A DNA stretch of 64,000 nucleotides from a virus (IMGVR_UViG_3300045988_120991:101979-165978), one strand, 5' to 3'. Counted from the first letter of the stretch, positions 963-29,529 are shown. Made by a program: numbers and translations. The notes: generated by a model not told the origin, from the letters alone.

Positions 963-1796
963 TCAAATTAGTTTCTCGACATAGTTTCTGTCTTGAGTAA
1001 AGATAGGAATTTCATTATCAATTACCCACTTACTTCTCTTGATATAACCACAAATATTTCCTACTTCATCATACTCGGTAAGACTATCATCAGCCTTAAT
1101 GCAGCAGCTACCACGCTTTAGAGTTGTAGAATAATCATTCCAGTTGATGCCCTTCTGTAGCATAAGCATATCCTGAATGTTGTTGCAAGACTTACCGTGA
1201 AGTTCCTTCTGACTGAAGTTTGCCTGACCTACAGACTGGATAGAGTTGCGAGTGGCATCTTGCTGTCGCCAGATTAGCGCATTGCAAACTTCCTCCTTGG
1301 GAATTGTAAAGACACGAGAATCAAACATAGCACCTTTATTTCTTGCGTTAATGAGAATTTTTGTATATTCGGTTAAATCCTTTGTAATACCACAATCGGC
1401 ATCAAGATTGTTGTCAATATACTTTACAATATTGTCGTTAAATGCTTTATTAAATGCTAGCGTTGCCATACTTGCAGATACACTACACATCTTCTGTAAA
1501 TTGTTGCCGAACCAAGCGTCAGTTGTAAGCTCTGCATAGTCAGTAAGCACAAGAGAAATTTCGTCGCTCTGTGTATAGCCAAGGACACAACCTTGGATGT
1601 TCTCACAGAGATACTTCATAGTATCTTGCATAGTCTTTACAAAAATATCATCAAAAGGTTTTTTCATGCCCTTAGTAAAAGTATGACCAGCTTTCATATC
1701 CATTCTAATAATAATCGGCATTCTACGAGTTAAATAATACCGACTGATATTCTCGTAGTTATTTTTCATACGGTCGCCCAGCGTAGTCTTATCCAT
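963..1796 (-). CDS. tRNA(His) guanylyltransferase-like protein (Thg1/TLP family 3'-5' nucleotidyltransferase)
   Basis: 277 aa. N-terminal GDRMKxYE, IIRMDMKAGHTFTKG (compare RxDGxxFHxFT) and YTQSDEISLVL (compare SDEYSF) are Thg1 family signatures as I remember them. Confidence 0.8.
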   Translation of the reverse strand: MDKTTLGDRMKNNYENISRYYLTRRMPIIIRMDMKAGHTFTKGMKKPFDDIFVKTMQDTMKYLCENIQGCVLGYTQSDEISLVLTDYAELTTDAWFGNNLQKMCSVSASMATLAFNKAFNDNIVKYIDNNLDADCGITKDLTEYTKILINARNKGAMFDSRVFTIPKEEVCNALIWRQQDATRNSIQSVGQANFSQKELHGKSCNNIQDMLMLQKGINWNDYSTTLKRGSCCIKADDSLTEYDEVGNICGYIKRSKWVIDNEIPIFTQDRNYVEKLI

Positions 1797-5426: not shown

Positions 5427-6302
5427 TTAATGTGCTGCAAGGTCTGCTTCGTGAAGCAAATCCACAGAATTTTTAAGATATGCTGGAAGATTTTTATAAC
5501 ACTTTTCATTTAGAAATGGTGCCATATGAGTGCTTACAAGCCAAGCAACATCTATTCTGATTTCATCTGCAACAAGACCATATATCATATATGCTCCAAC
5601 GCATTGATGCTGATAGAAGTGTGCAGTATCGCTCGGTTCACCTTTTGCATTAACGAATGCTTTGACATATGGTTTACCAACATCGTGAAATGATGCTGCA
5701 AGTGCCATAATGTTATCACACATATCGTTATTTACAATATACTTATATGCCGACTCACAATGATTGTAAATATCTAAAGTATGATGTGGGTTATCATGTA
5801 GAATTCGCATGGCCTCTGTAGAATCATCTATGTATTTTTGCATATCAAATCCATCTGGAAAAATGACTCTAATTTTATCAATGCCTTCATCATAATAAGG
5901 AGCTTGAAAACGCTTAAGCATTCTGTCAATAACTTCTTTACCAACAGTACGTTCTCTTGCGGCATCACGTTCAATGCAAGTTTCAATAGGTGCCCAAATA
6001 ATATGGCATTCAATTTGTGCAAACCTTGGGCACTTTGTAATGATGCTAGCTCTATCTTTTCTTGTGATATTTGTAGCATCATAGATGACATCAAAACCAT
6101 TATTCAATAACATAATTGCTCTATCCTGCATCAATGCAAATACATCTGAAGGATTTCCCTGTATATTTTCATCTCCATATAGTTCTTTTCTGATAGCATC
6201 AGAAGACAGATGATATGTATAGCTATTTTTCATTTTTTCTGCATAAGTGGTTTTCCCAGAACCAGGAATTCCACAAAGAAGTATTAGTACAGGTCTAGTC
6301 AT
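5427..6302 (-). CDS. bifunctional P-loop polynucleotide-kinase-like / HD phosphohydrolase protein
   Basis: N-terminal LLCGIPGSGKTTYA (Walker A) and DATNITRKDR. The C-terminal half has H..HD..H spacing (HHTLDIYNH, FHDVGKP, HFYQHQ, STHMAPF). Confidence 0.75.
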   Translation of the reverse strand: MTRPVLILLCGIPGSGKTTYAEKMKNSYTYHLSSDAIRKELYGDENIQGNPSDVFALMQDRAIMLLNNGFDVIYDATNITRKDRASIITKCPRFAQIECHIIWAPIETCIERDAARERTVGKEVIDRMLKRFQAPYYDEGIDKIRVIFPDGFDMQKYIDDSTEAMRILHDNPHHTLDIYNHCESAYKYIVNNDMCDNIMALAASFHDVGKPYVKAFVNAKGEPSDTAHFYQHQCVGAYMIYGLVADEIRIDVAWLVSTHMAPFLNEKCYKNLPAYLKNSVDLLHEADLAAH

Positions 6303-6550: not shown

Positions 6551-8029
6551 TTAATTCTCCTCCTCATTAATCTCTTCTTGTGCTTCTTCCATATCAGGAG
6601 TAGTTGCCTCAGCCTTTACTAGACCCTCAAGACACTTAAATGCAAAGTTCTTATGTTTATATGCGCAGAATTTAGGCTTATTCACAATACGAACTACTAC
6701 ACCCTCGCGTACATGAATCTTGCCAATAGGATCGGGGCCATCATAATATTGCTCTGCAATATTTTTAATCCATTCACCAGGGGTCCCTTCACGACAGACT
6801 CTCCAAGTGCCATGCTCGCCATAACAATCATAACCTTCTTCAAGACCCTCATCAGCGGGGATAAAACCTCTCCACAACATCGGGACACATTTACAACCCA
6901 TTTGCTCACAACGATAACGCATGAAGTCAGGAGAATACTCTACTACATCTCCGTCTTCATTTGTCATAGTCATACGATAAACATAAAAGTCAGACTGAGG
7001 AACTTCTCTTTCAGTGATACCAATACCTTCTTTGCCGTCTGGATTACAGCCATAAGAGAAAGTCGTAGTCTTACCATACTGCTTCACAAATTCCTTATCA
7101 TTGAGCTTCTTATTATCAGCGGTTGCCATAATAGGAGTGCTAGTATGGGTGAACCCAACTACCTCATAGTAGACCTCTTCACCCTTATGTAGTTTGCCCT
7201 CAAAGAACTTGGAGTGCTGTTCGCGGAACTCATTAGAGCCATAGTAGCCGCCATCAAAATTCTCAAGAACGGTACGACGAGTACCAGACACATAGCCCCA
7301 ATTATAAATAGGAGTTGCAGAAGAAAGTCCAAGATTCGCGAACTTCTGAGTTATAGCACCAACTTTATCACCAGACATTACCGCATCGAGAGCAGCTTGA
7401 TAGATACGGTTTGTACATCTGTAACCCTTAAATACAGGTAAATAGCCGGTGCGCTGAGAAGTACCATGCATCTTTAGAGTGATTTCAATCTGGTCTCCCG
7501 CCTGAAAAGCTCCAAGATTATAGGCTAGCTGTTCAGTATCAGCATGTTCAGTAAACAGAGGTGCGATAGGAACCTTCTTCTTACGAGTATGATTACCATT
7601 TGTAGCATGACCACTACGGGTATTTCTGCGAGGAATGTACTTAGCGCAAATCTCATGTCCATTGAATGTAGTAATAACATCTCCAACTTTTAGATTGGAT
7701 ACGTCACCAAAAGATTCTAAGCAAGCCAATGGTAGAAATAGACCATCTGACTTTTCACCACGAAGCCTAATAGAAGTTACATTGCGCTTGTCTGGGTCCA
7801 TATAACCGCCAATGTTATTACCATCTACATCCTTCTTACGAAGCAAATTATTAGTATCTGCAAACTCAACAGAAAGTTGACCATCCGTAGGGAAATATAC
7901 ACCAATCTGACCGTCTGTATATTCCATACTTACACAAACCGTATTGCCAAAACACTCACCAAGCTGTAATCTGTCTGCGTTAGGATGCTTACGCAGATTT
8001 TTAATTGTTGTTACATACGCATTATACAT
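6551..8029 (-). CDS. ATP-dependent RNA ligase with N-terminal tRNA-binding-type OB domain
   Basis: N-terminal KHPNADRLQLGE resembles the Trbp111/EMAP tRNA-binding OB fold. Nucleotidyltransferase motif I is LKMHGTS (compare KIHGTN of T4 Rnl2), motif IV is REGVVVRI and motif V is AYKHKNFAFK. Confidence 0.75.
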   Translation of the reverse strand: MYNAYVTTIKNLRKHPNADRLQLGECFGNTVCVSMEYTDGQIGVYFPTDGQLSVEFADTNNLLRKKDVDGNNIGGYMDPDKRNVTSIRLRGEKSDGLFLPLACLESFGDVSNLKVGDVITTFNGHEICAKYIPRRNTRSGHATNGNHTRKKKVPIAPLFTEHADTEQLAYNLGAFQAGDQIEITLKMHGTSQRTGYLPVFKGYRCTNRIYQAALDAVMSGDKVGAITQKFANLGLSSATPIYNWGYVSGTRRTVLENFDGGYYGSNEFREQHSKFFEGKLHKGEEVYYEVVGFTHTSTPIMATADNKKLNDKEFVKQYGKTTTFSYGCNPDGKEGIGITEREVPQSDFYVYRMTMTNEDGDVVEYSPDFMRYRCEQMGCKCVPMLWRGFIPADEGLEEGYDCYGEHGTWRVCREGTPGEWIKNIAEQYYDGPDPIGKIHVREGVVVRIVNKPKFCAYKHKNFAFKCLEGLVKAEATTPDMEEAQEEINEEEN

Positions 8030-8941: not shown

Positions 8942-9718
8942 TTATAGTTCATCGTCTTCTTCTGCAAGCTTCTTCTTAATAGCTTTAATTGCAACTTGTA
9001 CATCTGGACGAGTAATGTTCTCCTCCATCCAGACCACATAATCGTCACCAGATTTGAATAGGTCAATCAGCTTCTCGCCCTTATGCTTACCAAATGTTAG
9101 CACATACTCTTCTGGCTTAGATTCTACTCTAGGAGTTTCAATGTTCTCAAAATCCATAGTAAGAGTTTTGCGAGATGCAAGGTAGTCTGCAAGATGTACT
9201 AGCTCTTGATATGTGTCTTCTGGTTTCGGCAAACATTCTCCGGTTTTTCTATCCACATTCCATTGGCCCATATGCGATTCAATACAATGAGCAATTAGTT
9301 CAATCTCATCGTGATTTAGATACTTGCCATCATAACTACGAATAACTGCTGCCATTTGTAGAGGGTGGTCGAATTTAGTATACTTACTTCTTTCATAATC
9401 TGATTGGGACCCACTCTTACGGCCATCATGAATCAGTCCTGCCACACGTAGCAAGTCTCTTTCTCTACTAGGAATTATTTTGTTGTATTGTTCAAGTTCA
9501 AGAAAGAAATTTAGGAATCTTACAACTGCAATCTGATGACACATCAATCCAAGTTCTCCAAGTGAATAGGCCGGATGGTACTTTCCAGTAGACGATGCTC
9601 CAACATGCCATATATATTCTGGAAGGTTGTCTAATAACACAATTGCAAAATCTTTAATATCATCATTTTCAAATGTATTTAGTACTGGTTGTACTATATT
9701 TAGTCTTTCAGGCGTCAT
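8942..9718 (-). CDS. HD-domain phosphohydrolase with C-terminal DUF3820-like tail
   Basis: 258 aa with KYHPAYS...CHQ...LIHDGRK...HCIESH (H..HD..H). The C-terminal FGKHKGEKLIDL...YVVWM motif is seen in phage/ExoX-like tails. Confidence 0.7.
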   Translation of the reverse strand: MTPERLNIVQPVLNTFENDDIKDFAIVLLDNLPEYIWHVGASSTGKYHPAYSLGELGLMCHQIAVVRFLNFFLELEQYNKIIPSRERDLLRVAGLIHDGRKSGSQSDYERSKYTKFDHPLQMAAVIRSYDGKYLNHDEIELIAHCIESHMGQWNVDRKTGECLPKPEDTYQELVHLADYLASRKTLTMDFENIETPRVESKPEEYVLTFGKHKGEKLIDLFKSGDDYVVWMEENITRPDVQVAIKAIKKKLAEEDDEL

Positions 9719-15042: not shown

Positions 15043-15165
15043 TGGCAGGGGTAGTAGGGTTCGAACCTACGATGCGGGAGTCTGGTCAAGGTAGTTGGTA
15101 CTGCCCCAACTAAATTCACTTGAATACCTTGAAAGTCCCGTGCCTTACCACTTGGCTATACCCCT
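15043..15165 (-). tRNA. tRNA-Gln-like gene interrupted by a 49-nt insertion in the anticodon loop (UUG if CTTT+GAC are joined; UUC is the alternative)
   Basis: AGGGGTA/TACCCCT acceptor, GCC-AAGTGGTAA-GGC D arm, CGGGA...TCCCG anticodon stem enclosing 56 nt, GTAGG-TTCGAAC-CCTAC T arm, G73, CCA. Insertion at 15083-15131. Confidence 0.65.
15094..15110 (-). repeat. conserved insertion hairpin, copy 1 (GTTGG-GGCAGTA-CCAAC)
   Basis: The same 5-bp stem and 7-nt GGCAGNA loop recur in the insertions at 16662-16678 and 17532-17548. Confidence 0.7.
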
Positions 15166-17468: not shown

Positions 17469-17601
17469 TGGTGCGGGTAGCGAGACTTGAACTCGCACGG
17501 ATATTTCACCGAGGGATTTTTGGTGAGTATTGTAGGTGCTGCCCCTACCAAAGCACTGGCTATACCCAAGTCCCTTGTGTCTGCCATTCCACCATACCCG
17601 C
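17469..17601 (-). tRNA. tRNA-Leu (class II) interrupted by a 47-nt insertion in the anticodon loop (UAA if CTT+AAAA are joined)
   Basis: GCGGGTA/TACCCGC acceptor, Leu-type D arm GTG-GAATGGCAGA-CAC, AGGGA...TCCCT stem enclosing 54 nt, long variable arm, GCGAG-TTCAAGT-CTCGC T arm, A73, CCA. Confidence 0.65.
17532..17548 (-). repeat. conserved insertion hairpin, copy 3 (GTAGG-GGCAGCA-CCTAC)
   Basis: Shares stem ends and the GGCAGNA loop with copies 1 and 2. Confidence 0.7.
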
Positions 17602-17649: not shown

Positions 17650-19203
17650 TTAAGAGTTCTTCAATGCGGCTTCCACCGCATCATATCTATCACTCATAAG
17701 CGTCTCAACGAGGCACTCATAAGGATTGGTCTTACCACTCATAACCATCTTGCAGACATTAGTGGAGAATCCACTAACAAGAGCAACACCAAGGTCATTC
17801 TCCTTTATAGGAATAGTTCCAGTGCGAGAATTTACATTCCAGAAGACTAGTCTAGGCATCTGATACCCAGCATCCTCGAAACGCTTCTTGATTACCTTAA
17901 AAAGTTTTGCATTAGGTCTATTAAGACCATATCTAGCGGAACCGTCACAAGTTGCACAAGAGTCAAACTCCATATCTGAAATAATCAGTACGTTCTTAGG
18001 CATATCCTCTTGCTTCATATGACCATTCACCGCAGTAGTAAGAATCAAATCAAACACCTTTTCAATGTTTGTATTTGAACACTCGTCATGACCATATGCA
18101 ACACGTAACTTATCTCTCAGAGAATCGCACTGACTAAAATCAACCAACTGAGGTCTGCTAGAGAAAGTAATGTATTTATCCTTAAAGTCTCCAGAAGAAT
18201 GTTCTGCAAAGTAAATCGCAAGTGCATTTGCAACTTCAAGTGCAGTAACACGGCTACTTCCACCAACGTTGCAACACATAGAACCAGAGCCATCTGCAAC
18301 TACAATGGTGTTTCCACATTCATTTACTGTGTTAGGCAAAGCTTTCCAAAGAGATTCAAGAGTTGCATCGTATTTGCCGATACCGCCGTACCATCCAGTT
18401 GCACTAGAATACTTATGCACAATGTCGTGAGGGAACAAAGTTCCAGCATTAATCTTAGTTTCGCCCTTTTCAAGCTTACTCAGATACTCTCTGCGACGCT
18501 CCTCATCATTACGAAGGAAAGCTCCGTTATAAATGAGATTTGCACGAGAAGGAACTGTTTCGTACTTAATGTCTCCCCATTTCTTTGCAGACATCTTGCC
18601 CTCTACAATATCAATGTAAGAACGCAGAGAAGAAAGTGTCTTACGATACTCACGCTCAGTCATACCAAGATTCTTGCAAATGTATCTTGCATCCATCTTA
18701 GTTTTTGCAGAAGAAGCATTCACAGAAGGAAGCCACTTGGCAAGAAGAGATACGGGCTTATTATCAGCCATATTTGCAATATCATCAGTGAGCTGCTTTT
18801 TGATGATGTCAAAAATAATACCATCTACGTCTGTACCAAACAGACACCACAGGTCATCATAACGACCATACTCACTCACCAGAGGAGCAAGATGCTTAAC
18901 AATATCAACGTCATCCTTTGCCATATTCTTAATAATCGCTCTGAACAAACGTCTTTCACCAAGACCACCACGAACATCTCTGGCGAAGAACAGCCAACGT
19001 AGAGCCATCATTTTATCTTCAAAATAAGCCTTAGTAAACTTATTATAGATATTCTCCTCACTCATACCACGCATAGAAGAAACTGCAAAGTTTAGGTCAA
19101 CCAGTTCCTTACCAGAGGTACGATACCCAAGAGCGCCATTCTCAGTTACTGAATAGTTGAAATCCTCGTTCAGAGTATTCTTTACTGCATTCATAAAAGA
19201 CAT
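17650..19203 (-). CDS. Ro60/TROVE-like vWA protein (DUF2828-type architecture)
   Basis: Start moved to MSFMNAVKN, with GGAGG upstream. N-terminal VTENGALGYRTSGKELVDLNF. C-terminal vWA domain with MIDAS VADGSGSM, and a tail FWNVNSRTGTIPI...VSGFS that parallels the Ro60 C-terminus. Confidence 0.65.
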   Translation of the reverse strand: MSFMNAVKNTLNEDFNYSVTENGALGYRTSGKELVDLNFAVSSMRGMSEENIYNKFTKAYFEDKMMALRWLFFARDVRGGLGERRLFRAIIKNMAKDDVDIVKHLAPLVSEYGRYDDLWCLFGTDVDGIIFDIIKKQLTDDIANMADNKPVSLLAKWLPSVNASSAKTKMDARYICKNLGMTEREYRKTLSSLRSYIDIVEGKMSAKKWGDIKYETVPSRANLIYNGAFLRNDEERRREYLSKLEKGETKINAGTLFPHDIVHKYSSATGWYGGIGKYDATLESLWKALPNTVNECGNTIVVADGSGSMCCNVGGSSRVTALEVANALAIYFAEHSSGDFKDKYITFSSRPQLVDFSQCDSLRDKLRVAYGHDECSNTNIEKVFDLILTTAVNGHMKQEDMPKNVLIISDMEFDSCATCDGSARYGLNRPNAKLFKVIKKRFEDAGYQMPRLVFWNVNSRTGTIPIKENDLGVALVSGFSTNVCKMVMSGKTNPYECLVETLMSDRYDAVEAALKNS

Positions 19204-19239: not shown

Positions 19240-19442
19240 CCAAGACACATTATTATGTACAATCTCCACATTAAAAATTTGCTGTTAGTGTCTTTGGAGT
19301 TTATTCAACGAGACGCCAAAATAAAACCATTAGTAAAAATATCATTTTCATCTTTTTAAATTGCTGTAAGCGTCTCTATGTAAGGCAAGGCACCATCAAT
19401 ATAAATCCATATCATATTATGTAAAGTTGCTGTTAGTGCCTT
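19240..19442 (-). repeat. three tandem imperfect hairpin units, each carrying a CTAACAGCAA-N-TTT box, in the leader of the Ro-like gene
   Basis: Minus-strand stems are AAGGCAC/GTGCCTT, GAGACGC/GCGTCTC and CCAAAGACAC/GTGTCTTGG. Each is followed on its 5' arm by (C)T(A/T)ACAGCAA-N-TTT. A fourth box lies inside the tRNA-Asn insertion. Confidence 0.6.
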
Positions 19443-19448
19443 TTTAAA

Positions 19449-19567
19449 GTCTCCTGACAGGACTTGAACCTGCGACCTCTGGTTTAACAGACCAATTAGA
19501 AACTTGCTGTTTAAGGCTTTTACAAGTCTCGTTATTAAGCGCTCTATCCGACTGAGCTACAGGAGAC
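19449..19567 (-). tRNA. tRNA-Asn(GUU)-like gene with a 44-nt insertion at the top of the anticodon stem; encoded G-1 opposite C73; no CCA
   Basis: Removing 19495-19538 gives TCTCCTG-TA-GCTC-AGTCGGATA-GAGC-G-CTGGT-CTGTTAA-ACCAG-AGGTC-GCAGG-TTCAAGT-CCTGT-CAGGAGA-C, a canonical cloverleaf. Confidence 0.6.
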
Positions 19568-19604
19568 ATATTTATGAGCAGTTTAACGAGGTGCTCGGCT
19601 CACT

Positions 19605-19649
19605 TTAATTTTGTACTGTGATTATACCACAGATTACTTATTTTGTCAA
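19605..19649 (-). promoter_or_regulatory. sigma-70-type promoter plus conserved leader, driving the tRNA-Asn-like / Ro-like unit
   Basis: Minus strand reads TTGACA-N17-TATAAT-c-ACAGTACAAAATTAA, with a TGTGG extended -10 context. Confidence 0.7.
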
Positions 19650-19763
19650 GTACTTTTTTACTTTTTATTCCAGAGAAGCCATCCACAAGCAACTCCGAAC
19701 AAGAAACATACAATTTCCTTCATCTTTACTTCTTCCTTATTATACCATATTCGGCATCATTTG

Positions 19764-20114
19764 TCAAGCATTTTCTCGATTTTTTCTTGTGCAATTTACT
19801 CGATTGCAGAACTCAAACATTGCTGCATTAAGATCCTCTGCAAACTCATCACACTTGGTATCCAGTGCTGCATAGTACCGATCCAGAAGCTTCGCCTTTG
19901 CCATCTTCATACCAATAGCAGGATCATACTCATCATCAGGATGACACACGACAACCGCACGATAAGAACTACTCATCAGGTACTTACTAGGATCGAAGCA
20001 CAGAGATTTGGTCTGTCCCATAATCTTTGCAATCTTATGGATAGCATCATACTTCGTGTTCTCAAGAACCGCAATGGTCTTGTTCTGCTCCGGCACATGT
20101 ACAAACTTAATCAT
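19764..20114 (-). CDS. hypothetical protein
   Basis: ORF track, 116 aa, behind two tandem consensus promoters. Confidence 0.6.
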   Translation of the reverse strand: MIKFVHVPEQNKTIAVLENTKYDAIHKIAKIMGQTKSLCFDPSKYLMSSSYRAVVVCHPDDEYDPAIGMKMAKAKLLDRYYAALDTKCDEFAEDLNAAMFEFCNRVNCTRKNRENA

Positions 20115-20134
20115 TTTTGTTATCCTTTCTTGTT

Positions 20135-20179
20135 TTAATTTTGTATTGTGATTATAACATGCTTTCTTGAACTTGTCAA
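20135..20179 (-). promoter_or_regulatory. sigma-70-type promoter plus conserved leader
   Basis: Minus strand reads TTGACA-N17-TATAAT-c-ACAATACAAAATTAA. Confidence 0.65.
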
Positions 20180-20228
20180 GCCCTTTTTAACCATCCCGGT
20201 AAAGGTTCTTGCCTCATTCATTGTTTGT

Positions 20229-20257
20229 ATTATAGCGCATTAATTTTGTTTTGTCAA
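20229..20257 (-). promoter_or_regulatory. second, upstream sigma-70-type promoter
   Basis: Minus strand reads TTGACA-N17-TATAAT. The -35 overlaps the stop codon of the preceding gene. Confidence 0.55.
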
Positions 20258-28239: not shown

Positions 28240-29529
28240 TTATTCTGTTTTCCACCTAAATACAAACCCTTTTGTTTTTTCTTGTACACCATGACAGCAT
28301 TCTAAAATTCTTGTTTTACTTGCATTCGTATTTTTTACGGCATCCGCAACATTTTTATATTCTGCTATAAAATTTCCATCTAAATCATACTGTAATACTG
28401 GAAGTCTAACTGGGCTTTTATGATAATTTGTAGATTTAATTTTATCTAAATCATAATCTCCGTCGGCATATTTCCATACAAATCCACCAGCCATAGAGCC
28501 ATCTTTAGCTAAACATCTCGATATGGTAGAATTGTTAATTCCAGTTATCCTTGATGCCTCAACAATACTTTCATAAGTTGCAATAATATTTCCATTTGTG
28601 TCTATTTGCACAACTTCTTTATATACTGGATTTTTATATACATATGTTTTTGACGGGTCATATTCTTCTTTGTATATCCAGATATATTCGCCAGCGTGGT
28701 TATAATTGCCTTTGCAGCACATAGTTATACTTGAATCATAAATATTTGTGTTTATACTTGCGTCTTTTATAGTACTATATTCTGCTATAAAATTACCCAA
28801 TTTATCCAATTGTACAACCGGCCTTAATGTATTATTATCATATGTTATATCATTATGAGGATCATAATCTTTTTTATAAACCCAAAGAAACTTTCCGCCA
28901 GATTTAGAATGTAATTTACCAAGGCAGCACTTGTTAATAGTTGTTTCATCAACACCAGTTATTTCACTGGCTTCTCTACCACTTTTAAATTCTGCTATAT
29001 ATTTTCCATCTAAGCCTAATTGAATAACTGGTACACTTTGTATTTTGCTTATAACATTTTTTGTTTCATCCGAATGATGTTTACCATAAAATGGGTTACA
29101 TTCTCCAGAAAATTTCTTGCTCCACTTTTCTTTTAACTCGTCTGTCCATCTATTTCTTTGAGCTTCACTCATTTTGTTTTTAGTATCATCAGATACTATT
29201 AATCCACTTACTCCGCCTCCACCATAACAAAGATTGTACCAATTTTTATCTTCTACAACATTAAGAAAAACACTTAAATCATATTCAGATTTATTTAATT
29301 CTTCTAATGAATCACAAAAACATATAATATTTCTAGAAAAATTTTCTTTGCCATATTTTCTTACTGCACTTTTAAATGCACTACCGCTTCCTAAATAATT
29401 CTTCCATTTATAATTATCATCAAAAGATTTTTGTCCAAGGTATCTTTTGCCGTTAACCATATTTGTAGTAATATATATAAATCCATATGGTTCTTTAATT
29501 ATTTTTTTTACTTCTTCCACAACTCTCAA
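28240..29529 (-). CDS. GIY-YIG homing endonuclease with four tandem NUMOD/IENR-like DNA-binding repeats
   Basis: N-terminal GFIYITTNMVNGKRYLGQ (GIY...YxG). Repeated units of the form xVxQxDxxGNxIAxYxSxxEAxxxTG....I..C......GGFxWxY. Non-ATG (TTG/GTG) start. Confidence 0.8.
   Translation of the reverse strand: MRVVEEVKKIIKEPYGFIYITTNMVNGKRYLGQKSFDDNYKWKNYLGSGSAFKSAVRKYGKENFSRNIICFCDSLEELNKSEYDLSVFLNVVEDKNWYNLCYGGGGVSGLIVSDDTKNKMSEAQRNRWTDELKEKWSKKFSGECNPFYGKHHSDETKNVISKIQSVPVIQLGLDGKYIAEFKSGREASEITGVDETTINKCCLGKLHSKSGGKFLWVYKKDYDPHNDITYDNNTLRPVVQLDKLGNFIAEYSTIKDASINTNIYDSSITMCCKGNYNHAGEYIWIYKEEYDPSKTYVYKNPVYKEVVQIDTNGNIIATYESIVEASRITGINNSTISRCLAKDGSMAGGFVWKYADGDYDLDKIKSTNYHKSPVRLPVLQYDLDGNFIAEYKNVADAVKNTNASKTRILECCHGVQEKTKGFVFRWKTE

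What the first reader, a model, noticed from the sequence alone, without database searches (positions are those of the whole stretch)
19449..19567. tRNA-Asn(GUU)-like gene with a 44-nt insertion at position 27/28, an encoded G-1:C73 pair and no CCA
Deleting 19495-19538 yields a textbook cloverleaf with anticodon arm CTGGT-CTGTTAA-ACCAG. The insertion therefore sits in the 5' strand of the anticodon stem, a non-canonical site otherwise known from archaeal BHB introns. The gene also encodes an extra G before the acceptor stem, opposite C73. That is a tRNA-His-like feature, notable because the window encodes a Thg1-like enzyme at 963-1796. It is the first transcribed element behind a consensus promoter and is followed by the Ro-like gene. 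The insertion carries the CTTAAACAGCAAGTTT box that recurs three times just downstream.
Basis: partly seen in the sequence, partly recalled or inferred. Interest (0 to 1): 0.75.

Follow-up and report, generated by a model that had tools for sequence, protein, structure and literature searches.

The report
tRNA-shaped Y RNA beside phage Ro
A phage gene that looks like an asparagine tRNA split by a 44-base insert is most likely not a tRNA with an intron: it is probably a tRNA-shaped 'Y RNA' whose insert is the docking site for the Ro-like RNA-binding protein encoded just downstream, which would be a new layout of a known RNA-protein partnership.

Summary
On the minus strand, 19449-19567 is a covariation-supported cloverleaf (Rfam tRNA 42.3 bits). 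It has a 44-nt insertion in the 5' strand of the anticodon stem, an encoded G-1:C73 pair, no CCA and a perfect promoter.

The intron reading is not supported. The neighbouring ORF (DUF2828+DUF7788) has the Ro60 fold. The insertion is a hairpin followed by CRC-NN-ACAGCAA-NNUU. The same element, circularly permuted, forms the three stem-closed modules between this gene and the Ro-like gene. It also lies beside Ro-like genes in Bacillus, Listeria, Mycobacterium and Escherichia phages, where some modules enclose T and D arms (YrlA topology; Rfam YrlA sub-threshold).

The insertion is never absent: no uninterrupted ortholog among 148 genes, and no joined sequence in IMG/VR. None of 48 such genes encodes CCA, against 86% of ordinary phage tRNAs. 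Twelve of the 16 closest relatives also carry a canonical tRNA-Asn. Of 148 box-bearing tRNA-like genes, 92 lack a usable anticodon arm.

Best reading: a non-permuted, tRNA-bodied Y RNA, a new variant of YrlA with a new protein-binding motif. Protein binding and the absence of splicing are inferred, not shown. Separately, the window holds two genuine tRNAs with polymorphic minihelix-type insertions.

The parts
19621..19649 (-). Sigma-70-type promoter of the RNA-protein operon (TTGACA, 17 nt, TATAAT, with TG before the -10)
   Evidence: 12/12 consensus match. Conserved upstream of the first tRNA-like gene in relatives.
19449..19567 (-). tRNA-Asn(GUU)-bodied RNA gene with an embedded module; G-1 at 19567, C73 at 19449, no CCA
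   Evidence: Rfam tRNA 42.3 bits. ARAGORN calls tRNA-Asn after the deletion. Present in all 16 close relatives. Covariation on 36 homologs.
19494..19537 (-).
   Evidence: Position fixed by the family alignment. Never absent in orthologs.
19513..19530 (-). Insertion hairpin P1 (GAG-A-CUU / AAG-C-CUU), ending 2 nt before the box
   Evidence: 6 of 7 pairs show double-sided changes across the family, 90.5% of cells paired. In most of the insertions folded, a hairpin ends about 1-2 nt before the box.
19504..19510 (-). ACAGCAA box inside the insertion (extended element CRC-NN-ACAGCAA-NNUU-NNA)
19481..19493 (-). Intact distal anticodon hairpin GGU-CUGUUAA-ACC (anticodon GUU at 19486-19488). The stem is completed by C27-G43 and U28-A42 across the insertion.
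19387..19442 (-). Stand-alone Y-like module 1: stem AAGGCAC/GUGCCUU closing a loop that begins UA-ACAGCAA (box at 19427-19433)
   Evidence: Fold z-score -2.66. Conserved in relatives. Same consensus as the embedded element.
19310..19376 (-). Stand-alone Y-like module 2: stem GAGACGC/GCGUCUC, box at 19361-19367
   Evidence: Fused with module 3 in L013 and L015, with the stem kept through a G.U pair.
19240..19297 (-). Stand-alone Y-like module 3: stem AAGACAC/GUGUCUU, box at 19279-19285
   Evidence: (fold z-score only -0.50 on its own). In L032 the stem is AAGACGC/GCGUCUU, a compensatory change.
17650..19203 (-). Ro60-like protein gene (Pfam DUF2828 + DUF7788/vWA), 517 aa, start MSFMNAVK after GGAGG
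   Evidence: Pfam. PHROG 850 'RNA-binding protein', 1e-139. The AF2 model's top 12 PDB matches are all Ro60/TROVE structures, E 5.6e-10 to 3.7e-5. MIDAS-type residues D304, S306, S308, T378 and D410 are invariant.

Best explanation
The element is a non-coding partner RNA (a Y-RNA-type RNA) of the Ro60-like protein encoded 246 nt downstream, built on a complete tRNA-Asn body.

The promoter at 19649-19621 drives one transcript that carries this tRNA-shaped RNA, three stand-alone stem-closed modules and the Ro-like mRNA. Host tRNA-processing enzymes would release the roughly 119-nt RNA: RNase P at the 5' side, probably leaving G-1 because it pairs with C73, and RNase Z or another nuclease at the CCA-less 3' side.

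The 44-nt insertion is not removed. It is a branch in the anticodon stem made of a hairpin followed by single-stranded NN-ACAGCAA-NNUU, and this helix-plus-box unit is the binding site for the Ro-like protein. The three downstream modules present the same unit in circularly permuted form (helix strand, box, loop, complementary strand).

The RNA would then tether the Ro-like protein to whatever recognises the tRNA part, as Y RNAs tether Ro60 to effectors. Here, unlike YrlA, the tRNA part keeps a free acceptor end and an anticodon loop.

Shown here: the RNA structure and its conservation, the Ro fold of the neighbour, the identity of the element in both contexts, and its genomic linkage to this protein clade across distant phages. 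Inferred: protein binding to the box, processing by RNase P and RNase Z, absence of splicing, and the tethering function.
For: 1. The neighbour has the Ro60 fold. The 12 best PDB matches are Ro60/TROVE structures, including the Ro60 of Thermus phage phiLo. Mycobacteriophage homologs are annotated 'Ro-like RNA binding protein'.
2. The embedded and stand-alone contexts share one position-specific consensus: C(-5) 93/86%, R(-4), C(-3) 79/84%, ACAGCAA, U(+9) 82/71%, U(+10) 73/67%, A(+13) 61/66%.
3. The box is linked to the gene and is strand-specific. It occurs 202 times in 46 kb upstream against 209 times in 385 kb elsewhere in viral loci. In an independent set of 80 genome loci it occurs at 1.56/kb upstream, against 0.15-0.18/kb within and after the gene and 0.13/kb on the opposite strand.
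4. The same stem-plus-box modules lie beside homologs of only 34-39% identity in Bacillus phage Skywalker, Listeria phage LP-124, Mycobacterium phage Tyson and Escherichia phage wV8. Several of them enclose a T arm, a closed acceptor-like stem and a D arm. Tyson's module matches Rfam YrlA at 36.4 bits, E 1e-4 to 1e-6.
5. Precedent: YrlA lies within 4 kb of Ro60 on the same strand and mimics tRNA (PMC4201824). It is described as a circularly permuted tRNA without a free CCA end (10.1101/312249). A phage Ro60 binds two Y-like RNAs encoded upstream of its gene (PMC12135203).
6. Evidence against a plain decoding tRNA:
   - 0 of 48 intact-arm box genes encode CCA, against 122 of 142 ordinary tRNAs.
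   - C73 occurs in 23 of those 48 and in none of the 142 ordinary tRNAs.
   - A canonical tRNA-Asn with G73 and CCA coexists in 12 of the 16 closest relatives.
   - 92 of 148 box-bearing frames have no usable anticodon arm.
7. The insertion is a fixed part of the gene. No uninterrupted ortholog exists among the 148. The joined sequence has 0 matches in IMG/VR, while 32 contigs carry the interrupted form. By contrast, the window's other insertion class is polymorphic.
Against: - Nothing here shows binding, processing or the absence of splicing.
- Rfam classifies the gene as tRNA, not YrlA, and it lacks YrlA's GNCGAA(N)G motif.
- 56 of 148 box-bearing genes keep a perfect split anticodon stem and a U33/A37 loop. 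Their anticodons vary like those of real tRNAs (GUU, UGU, UUU, UCU, GCA...), and a pure tether model does not require that.
- The phage encodes an RNA ligase and a polynucleotide kinase that could seal exons.
- The 64-kb window itself holds no ordinary tRNA-Asn.
- A missing CCA does not exclude a tRNA role. From my own knowledge, Firmicutes mature CCA-less tRNAs with RNase Z and the CCA-adding enzyme.
- In the window's clade, the minimum-energy fold pairs part of the box, although relatives L011 and L014 break that helix.
Confidence: 0.6

Rival explanations
1. It is a true pre-tRNA-Asn with a protein-dependent intron. The hairpin-plus-box is recognised, perhaps by the Ro-like protein or an unidentified nuclease. 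The 44 nt are cut out, and the halves are healed and sealed by the phage polynucleotide kinase and RNA ligase. CCA is then added, giving a functional tRNA-Asn(GUU).
For: - Deleting the 44 nt gives a textbook cloverleaf.
- The two pairs that span the insertion covary.
- U33 and A37-A38 are kept, and the anticodons are sense anticodons.
- An RNA ligase (phrog_968, 4e-62), a PNK-like kinase with an HD domain, and a Thg1-like enzyme are encoded in the window.
- The window has no other tRNA-Asn.
- Short 'enigmatic' insertions in phage tRNA genes have been reported (10.1101/356790).
Against: - 0 of 48 such genes encode CCA, against 86% of ordinary tRNAs.
- C73 replaces the G73 that, from my own knowledge, AsnRS uses as an identity element.
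- A canonical tRNA-Asn coexists in 12 of the 16 closest relatives.
- 62% of genes with the same insertion cannot yield a 7-nt anticodon loop.
- There are no insertion-free alleles anywhere, unlike the polymorphic class II insertions.
- The same element stands alone next to Ro-like genes in distant phages.
- No BHB motif and no splicing endonuclease were found.
Confidence: 0.2
2. It is a cis-acting leader. The tRNA-like element and the three modules form the 5' untranslated region of the Ro-like mRNA and serve as autoregulatory binding sites, or as a processing or stability cassette, not as free-standing RNAs.
For: There is one promoter and no terminator-like site between it and the CDS. Module 3 ends 37 nt before the start codon. 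The number of modules varies between relatives.
Against: - In phages Tyson and wV8 the modules lie downstream of the gene or are scattered in tRNA arrays.
- A cloverleaf this well conserved is an RNase P substrate by design, and would be cut out of the leader.
- Known phage and bacterial Y RNAs are likewise encoded next to Ro60, yet they act in trans.
Confidence: 0.08
3. It is a decayed tRNA pseudogene disrupted by a small mobile insertion and has no function.
For: ARAGORN does not call it. It lacks CCA. The hairpin in the window's clade is weak (-2.1 kcal/mol).
Against: It is conserved with compensatory changes in every helix across hosts whose Ro-like proteins are only 60-98% identical. The box and the insertion site are fixed. 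The insertion is never absent.
Confidence: 0.02

Closest known systems
YrlA (Rfam RF02553), the tRNA-mimicking bacterial Y RNA encoded next to Rsr/Ro60 (Chen et al. 2014, PMC4201824; Wang et al. 2018, 10.1101/312249)
   Same: It is encoded on the same strand within a few hundred nt of a Ro60-fold protein. It has tRNA-type D and T arms and an L-shape-compatible core, a Ro-side helix emerging where the anticodon stem lies, and no encoded CCA. Stand-alone modules of the same system in phages Tyson, wV8 and Skywalker have the YrlA order (helix strand, motif, T arm, closed acceptor-like stem, D arm, helix strand).
   Different: The topology is the unpermuted one: the ends are at an open acceptor stem, and the Ro-side helix is closed into a hairpin inside the anticodon stem. 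A complete anticodon hairpin is retained. The motif is CRC-NN-ACAGCAA, not GNCGAA(N)G. The protein matches Pfam DUF2828/DUF7788, not TROVE. Rfam's YrlA model does not match the window's gene.
Yrl1 and Yrl2 with the Ro60 of Thermus phage phiLo (PMC12135203)
   Same: A phage-encoded Ro60-fold protein has several small partner RNAs encoded immediately upstream of its gene. Binding was shown experimentally in that system. The phiLo protein is among the best structural matches of the window's protein.
   Different: The phiLo RNAs are stem-bulge-stem Y RNAs with the CGAA motif, and no tRNA body is described for them. Here one partner is a whole tRNA cloverleaf.
Deinococcus radiodurans Yrn1
   Same: It is a Y RNA with tRNA-like features that, when modelled as a tRNA, keeps an anticodon-arm-like stem-loop.
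   Different: In Yrn1 the Ro-binding stem is formed by the 5' and 3' ends, and the loop has 6 nt. Here the ends form a normal acceptor stem, and the loop is a canonical 7-nt U33 loop.
Short 'enigmatic introns' in tRNA genes of Lak megaphages (Devoto et al., 10.1101/356790)
   Same: Both are phage tRNA genes that standard bacterial tRNA finders miss because of tens of extra nucleotides in the anticodon arm.
   Different: The Lak insertions are polymorphic, and one was predicted to encode a tRNA. That matches the window's class II minihelix insertions (15046-15165 and 17469-17601), not the fixed, box-bearing insertion of this finding.
Archaeal bulge-helix-bulge introns at non-canonical tRNA positions
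   Same: Both are insertions in the anticodon stem away from position 37/38.
   Different: There is no 3-4-3 bulge-helix-bulge geometry, no EndA homolog was found, the promoters are bacterial in type, and there is no presence/absence variation.

Membership tests
tRNA (Rfam RF00005) | Cloverleaf scoring above the family's gathering threshold | tested here: met
   42.3 bits against 29. Acceptor, D and T helices are 96-100% paired, with double-sided changes in the acceptor and T helices (the D stem is almost invariant).
tRNA (Rfam RF00005) | Continuous 5-bp anticodon stem with a 7-nt loop in the gene | tested here: not met
   44 nt interrupt the 5' strand between nt 28 and 29. ARAGORN calls the gene only after they are deleted.
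tRNA (Rfam RF00005) | 3' CCA end (encoded, as in this phage's ordinary tRNAs, or added later) and aminoacylation | tested here: inconclusive
   CCA is not encoded: 0 of 48 in this class against 122 of 142 ordinary tRNAs. Post-transcriptional addition and charging cannot be tested with these tools.
tRNA-Asn specifically | GUU anticodon plus a G73 discriminator (identity elements, from my own knowledge) | tested here: not met
   The anticodon GUU is present, but the discriminator is C73. The canonical tRNA-Asn of relative L001 has G73 and CCA.
Y RNA / YrlA (RF02553) | Encoded near a Ro60 ortholog, on the same strand | tested here: met
   It lies 246 nt upstream of a protein with the Ro60 fold, on the same strand and behind one promoter.
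Y RNA / YrlA (RF02553) | tRNA-like D and T arms | tested here: met
Y RNA / YrlA (RF02553) | Stem formed by the 5' and 3' ends that carries GNCGAA(N)G, with the acceptor-like stem closed (permuted topology) | tested here: not met
   The ends form an open acceptor stem, the motif is ACAGCAA after an internal hairpin, and GNCGAA is absent.
Y RNA / YrlA (RF02553) | Score above the Rfam gathering threshold | tested here: not met
   There is no YrlA match in the window, even at E up to 10. Only the Tyson stand-alone module matches, at 36.4 bits against a threshold of 69.
Y RNA / YrlA (RF02553) | Bound by the Ro60-type protein | not testable with these tools
   Inferred from linkage, and from the fact that the motif differs between the two protein clades (CGAA with TROVE-type proteins, ACAGCAA with DUF2828-type proteins).
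Archaeal BHB tRNA intron | Two 3-nt bulges separated by a 4-bp helix at the two junctions | tested here: not met
   In the minimum-energy fold and in the covariation-supported consensus, both junctions lie in single-stranded stretches (about 7 nt and about 19 nt) either side of the insertion's own hairpin.
Archaeal BHB tRNA intron | A splicing endonuclease (EndA) and an RtcB-type ligase are available | tested here: inconclusive
   Neither was found among the roughly 35 window ORFs scanned. The rest of the phage genome and the host were not examined.
Group I intron in a bacterial or phage tRNA | A self-splicing core of about 200 nt or more, inserted in the anticodon loop | tested here: not met
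   The insertion is 44 nt and lies in the stem. There is no Rfam intron match.
Ro60 / TROVE protein (the neighbouring gene) | Match to Pfam TROVE (PF05731) | tested here: not met
   Only DUF2828, DUF7788 and a weak VWA_2 match appear at E up to 10. There is no sequence match to PDB Ro60 chains.
Ro60 / TROVE protein (the neighbouring gene) | Helical-repeat ring plus a vWA domain with a MIDAS site (the Ro60 fold) | tested here: met
   The top 12 Foldseek matches are Ro60 structures aligned over the full length, with query-normalised TM-score (TMq) 0.36-0.51. The model has mean pLDDT 67.5, and residues 200-288 are poorly predicted. D304, S306, S308, T378 and D410 are invariant.

The most novel reading that the evidence does not exclude
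These RNAs are a previously unrecognised class of phage tRNA/Y-RNA chimeras in which a working anticodon loop is the point of the design. The loops mostly belong to readers of ANN codons (GUU, UGU, UUU, UCU, GAU) and switch between orthologs. The Ro-like protein docks on the hairpin-plus-box beside the anticodon hairpin.

The particle could act as a bait or sponge for host anticodon nucleases or other anticodon-reading defence factors. Alternatively, it could hold a conditionally released 'pro-tRNA' that is matured by a Ro-dependent, ligase-sealed splicing route not known in bacteria or their viruses.

Either way, it would give the long-unexplained tRNA-like domain of bacterial Y RNAs a concrete target, and it would place the unpermuted form as the evolutionary link between tRNA and YrlA.
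Probability: 0.2. Interest if true: 0.85.

Novelty: new variant of a known kind. Interest (0 to 1): 0.62.

Why it matters
Bacterial Y RNAs (YrlA) mimic tRNA, but nobody knows what their tRNA-like domain is for. This element is the same kind of Ro-linked RNA in the natural tRNA topology, with an open acceptor end and a real, evolving anticodon loop. That narrows the candidate partners to factors that read anticodon arms, and it makes the question testable.

The work also defines a new recognition element, helix plus CRC-NN-ACAGCAA, for a very large Ro-like protein clade that Pfam leaves as domains of unknown function (7,997 of 8,000 scored candidates pass E <= 1e-5). The protein family occurs in 710 cultured phage records, including Felix O1-like, Listeria and Staphylococcus phages, so experiments are possible in tractable systems.

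On the practical side, tRNA finders miss these genes, and an automated 'intron' call would mis-annotate them.

Tried and rejected
- DNA similarity to annotated phages in distant mode found nothing. Only protein-level searches reached cultured relatives.
- Sequence searches of the protein against PDB chains, singly and as a profile, found no Ro60. Only the fold comparison did.
- Brute-force single deletions scored with ARAGORN were uninformative, because ARAGORN accepts too many variants.
- The minimum-energy hairpin of the window's insertion (GAGACUUGU/GCAAGUUUC, z-score -3.8) was rejected as the functional fold. L011 and L014 break it with a C.A mismatch, and other clades cannot form it. The weaker homologous hairpin is the one that covaries.
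- G-1:C73 as a defining or Thg1-linked feature was rejected. It occurs in some clades only and does not covary, and the 'pairing' at -1:73 in ordinary tRNAs comes from the AUAU spacer.
- The total count of ACAGCAA in the window is not unusual (10 found, 11 expected). Only its clustering and context are.
- The BHB and group I intron readings were rejected on geometry and size.
- Two Ro60/Y RNA reviews could not be read because they are not held.

Full report
**What is there**

Read on the minus strand, 19566-19449 is UCUCCUG-UA-GCUC-AGUCGGAUA-GAGC-G-CU[44 nt]GGU-CUGUUAA-ACCAG-AGGUC-GCAGG-UUCAAGU-CCUGU-CAGGAGA-C, preceded by G at 19567. Rfam's tRNA model scores it 42.3 bits against a gathering score of 29, with 57 nt in place of the 13 central anticodon-arm positions. 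ARAGORN misses it. After deletion of 19495-19538, ARAGORN returns tRNA-Asn(gtt) with an eight-pair acceptor helix that includes G-1:C73.

No CCA follows, whereas 13 of the window's 14 ordinary tRNAs encode CCA. A 12/12 promoter with an extended -10 lies at 19649-19621, and no terminator-like site follows it on that strand. The one correction is the site: relatives in which nt 28 is G place the insertion between nt 28 and 29.

**The neighbour**

The ORF that follows (19203-17650, 517 aa) matches Pfam DUF2828 and DUF7788, not TROVE, and has no sequence match to PDB chains. An AlphaFold model built from 22 homologs has mean pLDDT 67.5. Its 12 best PDB matches are all Ro60/TROVE structures:
- the Ro60 of Thermus phage phiLo,
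- Xenopus Ro60 with RNA,
- human Ro60,
- Deinococcus Rsr.

These have E-values from 5.6e-10 to 3.7e-5 and align over the full length. MIDAS-type residues are invariant in the family. PHROGs calls the family 'RNA-binding protein', and mycobacteriophage records call it 'Ro-like RNA binding protein'.

**The box and the modules**

Between the tRNA-like gene and the Ro-like gene lie three modules: 19442-19387, 19376-19310 and 19297-19240. Each has a 7-bp G+C-rich stem closing a loop that begins NN-ACAGCAA-NUUU. The insertion carries the same core at 19510-19504, two nucleotides after its own hairpin (19530-19513).

I compared 84 embedded and 129 stand-alone contexts from related loci. The position-specific base frequencies are nearly the same:

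| Position | Base | Embedded | Stand-alone |
|---|---|---|---|
| -5 | C | 93% | 86% |
| -4 | purine | 89% | 92% |
| -3 | C | 79% | 84% |
| +9 | U | 82% | 71% |
| +10 | U | 73% | 67% |
| +13 | A | 61% | 66% |

. In both contexts the box continues from the 3' end of a helix strand. The partner strand lies downstream in the stand-alone modules and upstream in the insertion. The two arrangements are circular permutations of one unit.

**Comparative evidence**

All 16 close viral relatives (89-98% protein identity) have the interrupted gene at the same place. Eleven of them have a second box-bearing tRNA-like gene just upstream of it.

In 68 further viral loci (60-75% identity), ACAGCAA occurs 202 times in the 46 kb upstream of the gene and 209 times in the other 385 kb. 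In 80 loci from bacterial genome records, mostly gut Lachnospiraceae and Oscillospiraceae, the density is 1.56/kb upstream on the gene's strand. It is 0.15-0.18/kb within and after the gene and 0.13/kb on the other strand.

A simple frame scanner found 148 unique box-bearing tRNA-like genes of 100-150 nt. With positions fixed by offsets alone, the two pairs that span the insertion are formed in 75% of cells, against 34-51% in shifted registers. Both pairs take several forms:
- 27:43 occurs as C-G 52, U-A 22, A-U 18 and G-C 13.
- 28:42 occurs as C-G 44, G-C 35 and U-A 23.

On a 36-sequence alignment of the window's family, 96.6% of cells pair, against 31-49% when slid, and the covariation score is 0.60 against 0.19 for shuffles. 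Six of the seven insertion-hairpin pairs show double-sided changes.

**Distant cultured phages**

The protein has homologs in 710 phage records. Four were examined:

| Phage | Protein identity | Modules |
|---|---|---|
| Bacillus phage Skywalker | 39% | beside the gene and within its tRNA array |
| Listeria phage LP-124 | 35% | three in tandem upstream of the gene |
| Mycobacterium phage Tyson | 34% | three downstream of the gene |
| Escherichia phage wV8 (Felix O1-like) | 37% | within the tRNA array downstream of the gene |

All carry stem-plus-ACAGCAA modules. In Tyson, Skywalker and wV8, some modules enclose a T arm, a closed acceptor-like stem and a D arm. That is the order of the bacterial Y RNA YrlA. 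Tyson's module matches Rfam YrlA at 36.4 bits, below the gathering score of 69. There GCAGCAA sits where YrlA has GNCGAA(N)G, the strand that Ro60 contacts.

**Why not an intron**

1. None of the 48 box genes with an intact anticodon arm encodes CCA, against 122 of 142 ordinary tRNAs in the same loci.
2. C73 occurs in 23 of those 48 and in none of the 142. From my own knowledge, AsnRS uses G73.
3. Twelve of the 16 closest relatives hold a canonical tRNA-Asn(GUU) with G73 and CCA within the fetched flanks (in L001, about 530 nt downstream of the Ro-like gene). In the window that segment is replaced.
4. Ninety-two of the 148 box-bearing genes cannot give a 7-nt U33 loop by simple excision.
5. 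No box-bearing gene has an uninterrupted ortholog (best similarity to any ordinary tRNA is 0.8 or less). The joined sequence has no match in 2.9 million viral contigs, while 32 contigs carry the interrupted form.
6. Neither the fold nor the consensus has a bulge-helix-bulge, and no EndA or RtcB was found among the ORFs scanned.

**What keeps the intron reading alive**

- Fifty-six of the 148 keep a perfect split anticodon arm.
- Orthologous bodies carry GUU, UGU, UUU, UCU, GCA and other anticodons, mostly readers of ANN codons (further loops are seen).
- The phage encodes an RNA ligase, a PNK-like kinase and a Thg1-like enzyme.
- The window has no other tRNA-Asn.

I put this rival at 0.2.

**Mechanism proposed**

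One transcript starts from the 19649 promoter. Host RNase P and a 3' nuclease release a roughly 119-nt RNA whose acceptor helix has eight pairs. The Ro-like protein binds the helix end plus ACAGCAA, both on this RNA and on the three small modules. The tRNA body then serves as the effector-binding half, as in Y RNAs generally.

The literature describes YrlA as a circularly permuted tRNA with a closed acceptor stem and no free CCA end. The window's RNA is the unpermuted counterpart of that design. Binding, processing and function are all inferred.

**Comparison and novelty**

The RNA works like a YrlA-type Y RNA, but it fails three of YrlA's defining features: the motif, the topology and the Rfam score. 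It also fails the tRNA features of a continuous anticodon stem and, for tRNA-Asn, a G73 discriminator.

Rfam 15 has no family for the box element. The literature searches found no description of DUF2828 as an RNA-binding protein and no description of tRNA genes carrying a Ro-type module. I rate it a new variant of a known kind.

**Side finding**

The window has two further interrupted tRNA genes of a different class:
- tRNA-Gln(UUG) at 15046-15165, with 49 extra nt;
- tRNA-Leu(UAA) at 17469-17601, with 47 extra nt at 17521-17567.

Both encode CCA. Close relatives have the same genes without the insertion. The insertions have the layout of a tRNA minihelix: a 7-bp stem, a linker, a 5-bp stem with a 7-nt loop stacked on the 3' strand, and then ACCA. 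Nine cases end in NCCA, against none in 1,080 shuffles. These insertions, not the finding itself, resemble the 'introns' reported in Lak megaphages.

Noticed in passing
window 15046-15165 (-) and 17469-17601 (-): Two genuine, CCA-encoding tRNA genes carry 47-49-nt insertions in the anticodon loop: Gln(UUG) reads CUUU|49 nt|GAC, and Leu(UAA) reads CUU|47 nt|AAAA (insertion at 17521-17567). The insertions are present or absent between roughly 97%-identical phages. They have the layout of a tRNA minihelix: a 7-bp stem, a linker, a 5-bp stem with a 7-nt loop stacked on the 3' strand, then ACCA. That layout suggests excision by RNase P and a 3' tRNA-processing nuclease, followed by sealing by the phage RNA ligase. 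ARAGORN misses both genes, and Rfam at its gathering score misses the Leu gene.
   Followed up: partly
L003 2486-2626, L008 2509-2632 (and the equivalent positions in L005-L007, L009-L011, L014, L016): Eleven of the 16 closest relatives have a second box-bearing tRNA-like gene (124 or 141-142 nt) between the promoter and the Asn-like gene. It has a 5-bp anticodon-type stem but no canonical 7-nt loop after simple excision. The window lacks this copy.
   Followed up: partly
window 963-1796, 2088-2636, 5427-6302, 6551-8029, 8942-9718 (all -): An RNA-repair gene set lies upstream of the tRNA arrays: a Thg1-like enzyme (phrog 'tRNA-His guanylyltransferase'), a metallophosphoesterase, an AAA_33 kinase with an HD domain (polynucleotide-kinase-like), an RNA ligase (phrog_968, 4e-62) and an HD-domain protein.
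   Followed up: partly
L100 (Listeria phage LP-124) 974-1525: A ROOL RNA match (RF03087, 87.4 bits, below the gathering score of 99.1, E 1.4e-16) lies about 1 kb upstream of the Ro-like gene, near an RtcB-like ligase gene.
   Followed up: no
window 19621-20257 (-): Four perfect 12/12 sigma-70-type promoters lie within about 640 nt (20257-20229, 20179-20151, 19767-19739, 19649-19621), three of them with an extended -10 TG. Each precedes a short ORF or the RNA operon.
   Followed up: no
window 19570-19612 (-): The leader between the promoter and the tRNA-like gene holds a stem, UGAGC/GCUCA, that recurs in the otherwise different leader of the L008 clade. Its role is unknown.
   Followed up: no
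window 28240-29529 (-): A GIY-YIG/NUMOD homing-endonuclease-like ORF overlaps the end of the RecJ-like gene, next to the DNA polymerase III alpha gene.
   Followed up: no
L062, L063, L064 (about 1966-2117); L041 to L044 (about 1267-1667): Nearly identical orthologous box-bearing genes differ only in the anticodon: GUU in L062 and L064 against UCU in L063, and UGU in L042 against UGA in L041, L043 and L044. The anticodon therefore turns over quickly while U33 and A37-A38 are kept.
   Followed up: partly
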